From: Escherichia coli | GTDB taxonomy: Bacteria > Pseudomonadota > Gammaproteobacteria > Enterobacterales > Enterobacteriaceae | Reading direction: 5' to 3' (one strand) | DNA length: 64,000 nt | NCBI RefSeq assembly: GCF_003334785.1 | Contig: NZ_QOWV01000014.1 | In this document: positions 46,730 through 48,181 of the stretch, piece after piece | Position numbering within the stretch: position 1 is the stretch's first letter | How the letters are laid out: each line of letters begins with the position of its first letter | Notes under the pieces: generated by a model | Databases searched by the model: none | Told to the model about the DNA's origin: nothing | What the model saw: only the letters and a program-made list of their open reading frames with translations | Program-made: the position numbers and the translations under genes

Positions 46730-48181
46730 TCAGCTAAACAACATCGCGATTTTGCCGAGAGCATAACCTATCACCAGCACCGTTAAACTGATTTTGATAA
46801 TGCTGGTAATGCTCTGTGGTTTTTCACCCTCATCATTTTTTTCTTCATGATTTTCAGGTGTTGGCTCATCGACATCTTCATCCTCCGGCTCGAGTTTCAC
46901 TTTCGTCAAAAGCATCCGGGTGACAATGGCCTCTAATGGATGAGCATCTCCGCCTTCCAGCCTTGTATTAAGACGGGCCAGCATCTCTTGTTTCGGAAAC
47001 GCTTCAAGTACTACCTGTTCCGCTACCCGATACAAATCCAGGAACGGTGAATCTTGCTCTGTCTCGCTACCGACTCTCGATTTCCACCACGCCCATGCTT
47101 TGCGCTTGAAGAATAACGACTCAATAAACGATTGACCTAACGGCGATAATTTTCCGCTATGTAAAATCTCCGCCCATAACAGCCGCGTCCGGGCGCTCTC
47201 ACCAGGAACATATTTCAGCGGTTGACCTTGCGCATCTACCATGCTCCGCGCTTCGATAACCATCACTAATAACGCGAAATAATCCGGGCAATGACGCTTG
47301 CTCCACTGCAACAACAAATTATCAGCTTGTGTAGATGGGTAACTTTCCCAGTACGCGCAGAGATCGGCAAGCAGGCTTTCCCCCTCGCCGCAGTACAAAC
47401 GTTGTGCACACAAGTAATACCGGGCATCTTCGCTTTCTGGTTCTTCCGTTTGCCACTGTTGAGCGACAGGAATGAGTTCCGCCATACCTGTTTGCACCGA
47501 GCTGTACCAGCGCAACAGTTTGCGATGTAACTTTGCATCATCAGGAATTAACCACGGACCTTCCATCGCCAAAAACGCAGTGACATAGTCAGGATGGTAA
47601 CGGCAGCAACGTTCCAGCGCGAAGTAATACTCAACAGTCTGGTTCTGCAACGCAATGGGATATTCCAGAAGGCTAAGGAAATCGAAACAATCACCAGCCT
47701 GAATGGCCTCAAGAAAAGCCTCCCTTTCTTCCTCATCCATTCCTTCGCTGTCATTAAATGAATGCCAGTTCAAACGCTCTGCCAGCAAAGAAGCACAATT
47801 TAATGAAAGATATCGCGCTTCTATGGCGATTGCACACAGCGGCCAGCGTAATTGATCGACATCCTCCATGTTCCAGGTATTTAATTGCTGAATAAATTTC
47901 TGCCAGGCGGAAGGCTGAAAACGATCACTTTCTGAATCCAGTAATGTCCTGAATGCACGTAGTATTTCATGTTCAGCGGCAGCATCTTTTTCTTCATCAT
48001 CTGCTTCCTCGACAGGATTTACCGCCAGTCGCAGGGCCTCTTCATAGGCCTGGCGTAATGCTTTAAACCCTTGCGGATCGGTTTCGGGATGACACAACGG
48101 TAAGCGAGCAAGATAAGCCTGGCGGATAATGTCTATTTGCGTCGTGCTTTCAATTTCGAGGATTTGCCAACATGTTTTCAT
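46730..48181 (-). CDS. djlC: Tail-anchored J-domain co-chaperone DjlC (YbeV)
   Basis: Track ORF 483 aa, [50 protein letters not shown]...; hydrophobic C-terminus [26 protein letters not shown]; start overlaps the ybeU stop (ATGA). Confidence 0.9.

What the first reader, a model, noticed from the sequence alone, without database searches (positions are those of the whole stretch)
48077..48091. Both island J-domains read HPE-TD where the canonical Hsp70-activating tripeptide is HPD
In the translations, DjlC has ...[12 protein letters not shown]... and DjlB has ...[12 protein letters not shown]... (DjlB coordinates 50874..50888). Aligned by eye to DnaJ (...KYHPDRNQGD...), the invariant Asp of the HPD motif is replaced by Glu, followed by Thr-Asp. 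The HPD Asp is normally essential for stimulating Hsp70 ATP hydrolysis, so either HscC has co-evolved to accept HPE or the downstream Asp substitutes. Either way this marks a closed, dedicated J-protein/Hsp70 pair that would not cross-talk with DnaK.
Basis: seen in the sequence. Interest (0 to 1): 0.45.

Follow-up and report, generated by a model that had tools for sequence, protein, structure and literature searches.

The report
HPE J-domains of E. coli DjlB/DjlC
The two membrane-anchored co-chaperones next to the E. coli hscC gene really do carry His-Pro-Glu where almost all J-domains carry His-Pro-Asp, but this is a published feature of the HscC chaperone system, so the finding is correct and not new.

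Summary
Window 48077-48091 (-) and 50874-50888 (-) both translate to HPETD, codons 31-35 of djlC and djlB in the E. coli hscC locus.

Profile alignments to solved J-domains place H31-P32-E33 on DnaJ H33-P34-D35 (best E 1.3e-7). An AlphaFold2 model puts HPE in the loop between helices II and III. The register is therefore right, and no true HPD lies elsewhere in the domain.

Glu is fixed in all 111 enterobacterial clusters that keep the N-terminus. It is also fixed in 50 diverse relatives from Gammaproteobacteria to Clostridia. All 7 distant relatives I looked up sit next to an HscC-sized Hsp70.

The downstream Asp35 aligns with DnaJ Asn37 and sits at the start of helix III, so it is unlikely to replace the HPD Asp. 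HscC keeps the residues that contact that Asp in DnaK (R167 = R146, Q378 = Q341), so any co-adaptation is not at the direct contact.

HPE in DjlB/DjlC is already published (PMC10410713, PMC13254874). The exclusive DjlC-HscC stimulation was reported by Kluck et al. 2002. Whether HPE itself causes that exclusivity is untested.

Verdict: already known, low interest.

The parts
48077..48091 (-). DjlC codons 31-35, H-P-E-T-D (HPE = 48083-48091)
   Evidence: Translation. Codons CAT CCC GAA ACC GAT. Aligned on DnaJ H33-P34-D35-R36-N37.
48014..48181 (-). DjlC J-domain core (residues 1-56): helix I 4-8, helix II 16-29, HPE loop 30-35, helix III 36-54
   Evidence: AF2 model has pLDDT above 90 for residues 11-50. 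Pfam DnaJ match covers residues 4-47, E=0.036. Family profile against PDB J-domains reaches E=1.3e-7. The top ~49 Foldseek hits are almost all J-domain entries, at weak E-values.
46730..48181 (-). djlC (ybeV), 483 aa: J-domain, DjlB_C_2nd domain (PF27158), C-terminal hydrophobic tail anchor (residues 459-483 = 46733-46807)
   Evidence: ORF. Annotation 'co-chaperone DjlC'. PF27158 precomputed for homologues. Tail sequence. Membrane insertion reported in the literature (PMC8215388).
50874..50888 (-). DjlB codons 31-35, H-P-E-T-D
   Evidence: Translation. Codons CAT CCA GAA ACC GAT.
50811..50978 (-). DjlB J-domain core (residues 1-56)
   Evidence: Pfam DnaJ match covers residues 4-47, E=0.0017. 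Same alignment columns as DjlC.
49551..50978 (-). djlB (ybeS), 475 aa, paralogue of djlC (49% identity), tail anchor residues 451-475 = 49554-49628
45000..46670 (+). hscC, 556-aa specialised Hsp70 and cognate partner of DjlC/DjlB
   Evidence: ORF. Annotation. 33% identical to DnaK. Best PDB matches are DnaK chains, E=2.9e-93.
45435..45437 (+). HscC Arg146 codon, equivalent to DnaK Arg167 (salt-bridge partner of the HPD Asp); proposed partner of Glu33
   Evidence: Pairwise and 9-sequence alignments. Role of R167 taken from PMC8215388 and PMC13012618.
46020..46022 (+). HscC Gln341 codon, equivalent to DnaK Gln378 (second H-bond partner of DnaJ Asp35)
   Evidence: Role taken from PMC8215388.
48178..48885 (-). 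ybeU (DUF1266); its stop codon overlaps the djlC start codon (ATGA)
   Evidence: The same gene order and 4-nt overlap occur in distant loci L002, L004 and L009.
50975..51682 (-). ybeR (DUF1266), 59% identical to YbeU; its stop codon overlaps the djlB start codon (ATGA)
48987..49541 (+). 184-aa ORF between ybeU and djlB, related to the Sel1-repeat protein YbeQ; I take it to be ybeT from my own knowledge of the locus, not from a listed annotation
   Evidence: ORF. 36% identity to YbeQ over 127 aa.
51840..52823 (+). ybeQ, Sel1-repeat protein of the second module

Best explanation
DjlC and DjlB carry a genuine but divergent J-domain. In it, Glu33 of an H-P-E tripeptide occupies the structural position of the Asp of H-P-D, in the loop between helices II and III.

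The most likely mechanism is the canonical one. The Glu carboxylate engages the conserved NBD arginine of HscC (Arg146 = DnaK Arg167) and Gln341 (= Gln378). His31 and Pro32 contact the interdomain linker and SBD-beta (L356 and P388 are conserved). This triggers ATP hydrolysis by HscC at the inner membrane, where the tail-anchored co-chaperones sit.

HPE-x-DPxGF is an ancient hallmark of the whole family of HscC-cognate J-proteins, not a peculiarity of this E. coli island. Asp35 is a structural residue at the start of helix III, equivalent to Asn37 of DnaJ.

Shown here:
- the register;
- loop placement in a model;
- conservation of the motif;
- linkage to HscC-type Hsp70 genes;
- conservation of the Arg and Gln partners.

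Shown in the literature: DjlC stimulates HscC only.

Inferred: the Glu33-Arg146 contact, and that HPE works like HPD.
For: - Register: (J-domains only; best E=1.3e-7; hPE aligned on HPD).
- Fold: (helix 16-29, loop 30-35, helix 36-54; pLDDT above 90 for residues 11-50). One search gives almost only J-domain entries among the top ~49 hits, including 5nro_B at rmsd 2.7 A over 55 columns.
- Selection on Glu: 111 of 111 clusters. It is invariant in 50 relatives that are 28-70% identical to DjlC. 107 of the 146 newly fetched representatives show HPE near the N-terminus and none has a J-domain HPD (the one HPD is the internal DjlC site in a fragment); a further 10 read NPE, LPE or SPE. Both GAA and GAG codons occur.
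- Partner residues: DnaK K70, E171, D194, T199, D201, R167, Q378, D393, P419, E217 and D326 are all retained in E. coli HscC and in 7 HscC-type Hsp70s encoded next to xPE J-proteins.
- Linkage: 7 of 7 distant relatives lie directly beside a 560-567 aa Hsp70. They include Rahnella, Marinobacter and Eubacterium ruminantium.
- Function (literature): HscC ATPase is stimulated only by DjlC (PMC8215388, citing Kluck 2002). [quoted passage not shown] DnaJ D35 bonds DnaK R167 and Q378 (PMC8215388).
Against: - No structure or model of the HscC-J complex was obtained, so the Glu33-Arg146 contact is inferred by homology only.
- Pfam's DnaJ model matches only weakly (E=0.036 and 0.0017). A single-sequence search of the PDB found nothing.
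- Foldseek E-values are all 0.2 or worse.
- A Glu side chain is one methylene longer than Asp, so identical geometry cannot be assumed.
- The existence of NPE, SPE and LPE relatives shows that the canonical rule 'His is essential' does not transfer simply to this family. The mechanism may therefore differ in detail.
- I could not read Kluck et al. 2002 itself.
Confidence: 0.75

Rival explanations
1. HPE is itself the specificity switch. The Asp-to-Glu change is what insulates DjlB/DjlC from DnaK and DnaJ-type proteins from HscC.
For: - HPE is perfectly correlated with adjacency to an HscC-type Hsp70 in every case examined.
- The DjlC J-domain cannot replace DnaJ's, and DnaJ, CbpA and HscB do not stimulate HscC (PMC1906734 and PMC8215388, citing Kluck 2002).
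Against: - The residues that read the Asp (R167, Q378) are identical in DnaK and in all 8 HscC-type proteins, so nothing obvious discriminates Glu from Asp.
- Other interface differences exist that could suffice. K26 and R27 become L24 and A25 in E. coli DjlB/C. DnaK 208-211 (including D211) is deleted, D477 becomes S or T, and L392 becomes T in all HscC-type proteins.
- No E-to-D or D-to-E swap has been reported in the papers I could search.
Confidence: 0.2
2. The functional acidic residue is the downstream Asp35 (HPE-T-D): a shifted motif in which Glu33 is a passenger.
For: D35 is conserved in at least 90% of 50 diverse relatives and invariant in the enterobacterial set.
Against: - Glu33 is invariant, whereas position 35 is N, H or A in P0129, P0147, P0226, P0231 and P0248.
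- D35 aligns with Asn37 of DnaJ and with the Asn of HPDKNP in DNAJA1 and dnj-12.
- In the model, helix III starts at P36, so D35 sits at the start of helix III in a D-P-x-G-F motif.
- His31 lies two residues after the end of helix II in the DjlC model. From my recollection of the DnaJ NMR structure (helix II ending near residue 31), His33 is placed the same way, so the loop geometry on the helix II side appears unchanged.
Confidence: 0.05
3. HPE is a degenerate motif in a pseudo-J-domain ('type IV' JDP) that no longer activates an Hsp70 and serves only as a scaffold.
For: - Pfam DnaJ scores are weak.
- Two helix II basic residues are lost in E. coli.
- Relatives even lack the His.
Against: - Published ATPase stimulation of HscC by DjlC (PMC8215388, PMC13254874).
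- Strict purifying selection on P-E.
- Invariable adjacency to a catalytically intact Hsp70.
Confidence: 0.03

Closest known systems
E. coli DjlC (YbeV) / DjlB (YbeS), co-chaperones of HscC (Kluck et al. 2002, J Biol Chem 277:41060; reviewed in PMC8215388, PMC13254874, PMC10410713)
   Same: It is this system. The region is 100% identical to E. coli genomes annotated hscC, djlC and djlB. The HPE motif, the tail anchor and the exclusive pairing with HscC are all described in those papers.
   Different: Nothing differs. My additions are:
- the Asp-binding Arg and Gln are unchanged in HscC;
- D35 corresponds to DnaJ N37 and sits at the start of helix III;
- the motif xPE-x-DPxGF extends to long DUF805- and TPR-bearing relatives in other taxa.
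Canonical J-domain of DnaJ/CbpA/DjlA acting on DnaK (structure 5NRO, Kityk et al. 2018)
   Same: - Helix II, loop, helix III hairpin with His-Pro-acidic in the loop.
- Conserved Y25 (Y23), R22 (R20), F47 (F39), K48 (K40), K51 (R43).
- The Hsp70 partner keeps R167, Q378, L391, D393 and P419.
   Different: - Glu instead of Asp.
- The stretch from the tripeptide to the Phe equivalent to DnaJ F47 is 7 residues shorter (HPETDPQGF against HPDRNQGDKEAEAKF).
- K26 and R27 are replaced by Leu and Ala in E. coli DjlB/C.
- The partner lacks DnaK 208-211 and D477.
- No functional exchange with DnaJ or DnaK, according to the literature.
HscB (Hsc20)-HscA, the other dedicated J-protein/Hsp70 pair of E. coli
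   Same: A specialised, exclusive pair encoded side by side (PMC13254874).
   Different: HscB keeps HPD (PMC8215388, figure 4 legend). Exclusivity there is achieved without changing the tripeptide, which shows that a dedicated pair does not need HPE.
HPD-less 'type IV' J-like proteins (for example DNAJB13; PMC13254874)
   Same: They deviate from HPD.
   Different: Those are presumed unable to stimulate Hsp70. DjlC does stimulate HscC, and its variant residue keeps the carboxylate.

Membership tests
J-domain (Pfam PF00226 DnaJ) | Significant sequence-profile similarity to J-domains | tested here: met
   Pfam matches are weak (E=0.036 and 0.0017). The family profile against the PDB hits J-domains only, best E=1.3e-7, with E. 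coli DnaJ at 2.5e-6. The Rahnella relative P0130 matches PF00226 at E=1e-6.
J-domain (Pfam PF00226 DnaJ) | Antiparallel helix II / helix III hairpin with the signature tripeptide in the connecting loop | tested here: met
   AF2 model: helices 16-29 and 36-54, loop 30-35 containing H31-P32-E33, pLDDT above 90. The top ~49 Foldseek hits are almost all J-domain entries, though all at E of 0.2 or worse.
J-domain (Pfam PF00226 DnaJ) | Invariant His-Pro-Asp tripeptide | tested here: not met
   The tripeptide is His-Pro-Glu in both proteins and throughout the family. The literature treats HPE as the one tolerated variant (PMC13254874), so they are classed as J-domain proteins with a variant motif.
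J-domain (Pfam PF00226 DnaJ) | Basic residues on helix II and helix III that dock on the Hsp70 (DnaJ R22, K26, R27, K48, K51; PMC8215388) | tested here: inconclusive
   R20, K40 and R43 are retained. K26 and R27 are replaced by L24 and A25 in E. coli DjlC, with Leu and Leu in DjlB. The wider family has AYRKKL or AYRARL at this site.
J-domain (Pfam PF00226 DnaJ) | Stimulates the ATPase of a partner Hsp70 | not testable with these tools
   Reported for DjlC with HscC by Kluck et al. 2002, as cited in PMC8215388 and PMC13254874. The original paper is not held. It has not been reported for DjlB.
DjlB/DjlC family (HscC co-chaperones) | N-terminal HPE J-domain, then a DjlB_C_2nd domain (PF27158), then a C-terminal tail anchor | tested here: met
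   PF27158 is precomputed on the clusters that contain these proteins. The hydrophobic C-terminal 25 residues are.
DjlB/DjlC family (HscC co-chaperones) | Encoded next to an HscC-type Hsp70 | tested here: met
   hscC (45000-46670) lies 59 bp from the djlC stop codon, in convergent orientation. The same adjacency holds in 7 of 7 distant relatives.
HscC-type Hsp70 | Short Hsp70 (about 560 aa) with an intact catalytic and allosteric core but subfamily-specific deletions relative to DnaK | tested here: met
   556 aa and 33% identical to DnaK. K70, E171, D194, T199, D201, R167, Q378 and D393 are kept. DnaK 208-211 is deleted, and the changes L392T and D477S/T are shared by all 8 HscC-type sequences.
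Non-functional 'type IV' J-like proteins | Loss of the acidic residue or the His, with loss of Hsp70 stimulation | tested here: not met
   The carboxylate is retained as Glu and is under strict selection. Stimulation is reported in the literature (PMC8215388).

The most novel reading that the evidence does not exclude
xPE-x-DPxGF, rather than HPD, is the universal and ancient signature of J-domains that serve HscC-type Hsp70s, from Gammaproteobacteria to Clostridia. In this lineage the Pro-Glu pair is more strictly conserved than the His. NPE, SPE and LPE variants sit beside catalytically intact Hsp70s that keep the R167 equivalent. This would imply an activation geometry in which the Glu-Arg contact is the indispensable core and the 'essential' His of canonical J-domains is dispensable. 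The literature I could search mentions HPE only for DjlB/DjlC and as a roughly 1% variant. It does not state this family-wide rule or the His-less variants.
Probability: 0.3. Interest if true: 0.45.

Novelty: already known. Interest (0 to 1): 0.15.

Why it matters
The HPD Asp is the textbook invariant of Hsp70 activation. HPE is described as the only substitution that appears to be tolerated (PMC13254874), and DjlB/DjlC-HscC is the example given there.

Because this is already published, the finding adds nothing new for E. coli. Three points could sharpen the obvious mutagenesis experiments:
- the Arg and Gln that read the acidic residue are unchanged in HscC;
- other interface elements differ;
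- His-less relatives exist next to intact HscC-type Hsp70s.

The open question those experiments would address is what actually insulates the parallel Hsp70 systems in one cell.

Tried and rejected
- A single-sequence phmmer search of DjlC 1-100 against the PDB found nothing, even at E of 10 or less. A family profile was needed.
- The Foldseek search of the AF2 J-domain model returned almost only J-domain entries among the top ~49 hits, but with non-significant E-values of 0.2 or worse. I use it only as weak support.
- I tested whether the ~900-aa relatives are fusions of DjlC with YbeU (DUF1266) or with Sel1 proteins. BLASTP found no such similarity. Pfam shows a C-terminal DUF805 instead, and DUF1266 remains a separate upstream gene.
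- I considered the internal HPD of DjlC (residues 196-198) as a 'true HPD elsewhere'. I rejected it because it lies in the PF27158 region and reads HPQ in DjlB.
- Kluck et al. 2002 could not be retrieved, so its results are cited second-hand from reviews.
- I did not model an HscC-J-domain fusion with AF2, because the tool returns no coordinates and the Glu33-Arg146 distance could not have been read.
- I did not run the genome-wide scan starting from HscC. The reverse question, whether every HscC-type Hsp70 has an xPE partner, therefore remains untested.
- D481N in HscC looked like a possible co-adaptation of the R167 network. From memory, eukaryotic Hsp70s that work with HPD partners also have Asn there, and one HscC-type sequence (L009) keeps Asp. 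I therefore do not interpret it.

Full report
**What is at the coordinates**

Window 48077-48091 and 50874-50888, read on the minus strand, each translate to HPETD. They are codons 31-35 of two minus-strand ORFs, 46730-48181 (483 aa) and 49551-50978 (475 aa). The 8.5-kb stretch around them is 100% identical to several complete E. coli chromosomes. Those records annotate it as hscC, djlC, ybeU, djlB, ybeR and ybeQ.

The codons are CAT CCC GAA ACC GAT in djlC and CAT CCA GAA ACC GAT in djlB.

**Is the register right?**

The Pfam DnaJ model matches residues 4-47 of both proteins, but only weakly (E=0.036 for DjlC and 0.0017 for DjlB). A single-sequence search of the PDB found nothing. I therefore built family profiles.

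- A profile of 21 full-length relatives (A1) searched against all PDB sequences returned 18 hits up to E=10. Every one is a J-domain. The printed alignments place the family 'hPe' on the HPD of DNAJA1, dnj-12 and E. coli DnaJ.
- A profile of the first 100 residues of 50 diverse relatives (A5) raised this to E=1.3e-7. E. coli DnaJ in the DnaK complex 5NRO scored 2.5e-6 and CbpA scored 2.8e-6, with the same columns.
- MAFFT with the DnaJ sequence gives the same register.

The correspondences are as follows.

| DjlC | DnaJ |
|---|---|
| R20 | R22 |
| Y23 | Y25 |
| L24 | K26 |
| A25 | R27 |
| H31 | H33 |
| P32 | P34 |
| E33 | D35 |
| T34 | R36 |
| D35 | N37 |
| F39 | F47 |
| K40 | K48 |
| R43 | K51 |

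Between the tripeptide and that Phe, DjlC is 7 residues shorter than DnaJ.

An AlphaFold2 model of DjlC 1-100, built with A5, has mean pLDDT 84 and exceeds 90 for residues 11-50. It shows helices at 4-8, 16-29 and 36-54, with residues 30-35 (C-H-P-E-T-D) as the connecting loop. Foldseek against the PDB returns almost only J-domain entries among the top ~49 hits, including 5nro_B at 2.7 A over 55 columns. All E-values are 0.2 or worse, so I count this as weak support.

The only literal HPD in either protein is DjlC 196-198 (window 47588-47596). It lies in the C-terminal PF27158 region and reads HPQ in DjlB.

**Is it more than chance?**

A word-indexed search found 131 homologous clusters at 90% identity, from Escherichia, Salmonella, Citrobacter and Enterobacter; the best 120 were listed and read. 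All 111 that retain the N-terminus read HPE-[T/S/N/I]-DPQGF, and none reads HPD.

An exhaustive HMMER search of 1.84 billion representatives with A1 found 6,283 proteins at E of 1e-3 or better and 878 at 1e-10 or better. Of the 146 newly fetched proteins among the best 150:
- 107 show HPE near the N-terminus;
- none has a J-domain HPD (the single HPD seen is the internal DjlC site in a fragment);
- about ten read NPE, LPE or SPE.

In the 50-sequence alignment (28-70% identical to DjlC) the invariant columns are L8, Y23, P32, E33, P36, G38 and R43. H31 is not invariant, and D35 is conserved in at least 90%.

The Glu codon is GAA in some lineages and GAG in others. It is never GAT or GAC, which are one transversion away. 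That pattern is the signature of purifying selection for Glu.

**The partner**

HscC (45000-46670, 556 aa) is 33% identical to DnaK. According to the review PMC8215388, in the 5NRO complex:
- DnaJ D35 hydrogen-bonds DnaK R167 and Q378;
- H33 bonds the backbone of L391;
- P34 packs on P419;
- basic residues R22, K26, R27, K48 and K51 face E206, D211, E217 and D477.

In HscC the following are all conserved.

| DnaK | HscC |
|---|---|
| R167 | R146 |
| Q378 | Q341 |
| N170 | N149 |
| L391 | L356 |
| D393 | D358 |
| P419 | P388 |
| E206 | E184 |
| E217 | E191 |

What differs is peripheral. DnaK 208-211 (including D211) is deleted, D477 is Ser, L392 is Thr and K166 is Val.

I then took seven distant xPE J-proteins and looked up their contigs. 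All seven lie directly beside a 560-567 aa Hsp70. Cluster names place four clusters I looked up in Rahnella, Pseudomonas, Marinobacter and Eubacterium ruminantium. Of these, the Rahnella, Marinobacter and Eubacterium proteins are among the seven loci examined.

Those seven Hsp70s are 40-60% identical to E. coli HscC and 34-37% identical to DnaK. All keep K70, E171, D194, T199, D201, R167, Q378, D393 and P419. All share the 208-211 deletion, L392T, K414R and D477S/T.

So the residues that read the acidic side chain have not changed. If there is co-adaptation to Glu, it is indirect, for example through a slightly repositioned J-domain.

**Mechanism**

The best-supported reading is the canonical J-domain mechanism with Glu in place of Asp. 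The Glu33 carboxylate competes for Arg146 and contacts Gln341. His31 and Pro32 engage the linker and SBD-beta, and ATP hydrolysis follows.

[quoted passage not shown] 2002). It also fits the statement that HPE 'seems to be the only replacement tolerated' (PMC13254874). The Glu-Arg contact itself is inferred, not shown.

- D35 aligns with the Asn of the HPDxN consensus.
- D35 immediately precedes helix III, which begins at P36, so it looks like a helix-capping residue.
- D35 is replaced in several relatives, whereas Glu never is.

**Does HPE explain the closed pairing?**

The pairing is real according to the literature. The DjlC J-domain cannot replace that of DnaJ (PMC1906734), and DjlB/C-HscC is listed among exclusive pairs (PMC13254874). 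Nothing shows that Glu is the cause.

- E. coli DjlB/C also lack two of the five docking basic residues.
- HscC lacks two of the four acidic counterparts.
- HscB-HscA is equally exclusive while keeping HPD.

I put about 0.2 on HPE being a major specificity determinant.

**Novelty**

HPE in DjlB and DjlC is stated in Malinverni et al. 2023 (PMC10410713), which reports 2,921 HPE J-domains, about 1% of all, and names DjlB and DjlC. It is also stated in the 2026 review PMC13254874. The functional pairing dates from 2002. The finding is therefore correct but already known.

My incremental additions are:
- the Arg and Gln partners are unchanged in HscC;
- D35 is assigned to the start of helix III;
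- the motif extends across phyla and is always found beside an HscC-type Hsp70;
- His-less NPE, SPE and LPE variants exist.

These may be partly covered by work I could not read, such as Barriot et al. 2020, which is cited in PMC8215388.

**Limits**

- I obtained no complex model and ran no experiment.
- Kluck 2002 is cited second-hand.
- Linkage was tested only from the J-protein towards the Hsp70, not in the reverse direction.

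Noticed in passing
window 46730-52823: The island is a tandem duplication of a three-gene module: a Sel1-repeat gene, a DUF1266 gene and an HPE J-protein gene. The modules are (the ORF I take to be ybeT)-ybeU-djlC and ybeQ-ybeR-djlB. Paralogue identities are 36%, 59% and 49% respectively. Only one hscC gene is present.
   Followed up: partly
window 48178-48181 and 50975-50978; L002 2906-2909; L009 1882-1885: The DUF1266 gene's stop codon overlaps the J-protein gene's start codon (ATGA) in both E. coli modules. 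The same 4-nt overlap and gene order (DUF1266 then J-protein, beside the Hsp70) recur in Rahnella-like and Marinobacter-like contigs. This suggests translational coupling and a conserved functional unit of DUF1266, J-protein and HscC.
   Followed up: partly
P0217 (L006 2303-5788), P0229 (L012 6001-9792), P0263 (L008 2887-5400), and P0233, P0239, P0244, P0256, P0259, P0262, P0265: Relatives carry NPE, SPE or LPE instead of HPE, so they lack the canonical His. They still sit next to HscC-type Hsp70s with intact catalytic residues and the R167 equivalent. One of them is from Eubacterium ruminantium.
   Followed up: partly
P0130 (L002 2906-5569), P0132, P0209 (L005 8001-11216), P0229: Long relatives share the J-domain and the DjlC middle domain but have other C-termini. 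Rahnella and Pseudomonas proteins (about 890 aa) end in a DUF805 membrane domain. Firmicute-like proteins of 1,000-1,260 aa carry TPR arrays. They are not fusions with DUF1266 or Sel1 proteins.
   Followed up: partly
P0189 (L010 6001-7293): A 430-aa relative has one complete HPE J-domain followed by four tandem copies of a helix-III-only unit, roughly DDDPQEFQKLRDAYERALRDKYRKEA, each without its own tripeptide. It ends in a membrane tail and lies directly downstream of a 566-aa Hsp70.
   Followed up: no
window 48100-48114 (DjlC residues 23-27) and 50897-50911 (DjlB residues 23-27): Enterobacterial DjlB/DjlC read AYLARLP or AYLALLP in helix II. The wider family reads AYRKKLP or AYRARLP, and DnaJ reads AYKRLA. 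The basic docking residues equivalent to DnaJ K26/R27 were therefore lost specifically in the enterobacterial clade.
   Followed up: partly
window 47588-47596 (-): A literal HPD (RYHPDYV) occurs at DjlC residues 196-198 within the PF27158 region. DjlB has HPQ at the same place, so it is not a J-domain motif.
   Followed up: yes
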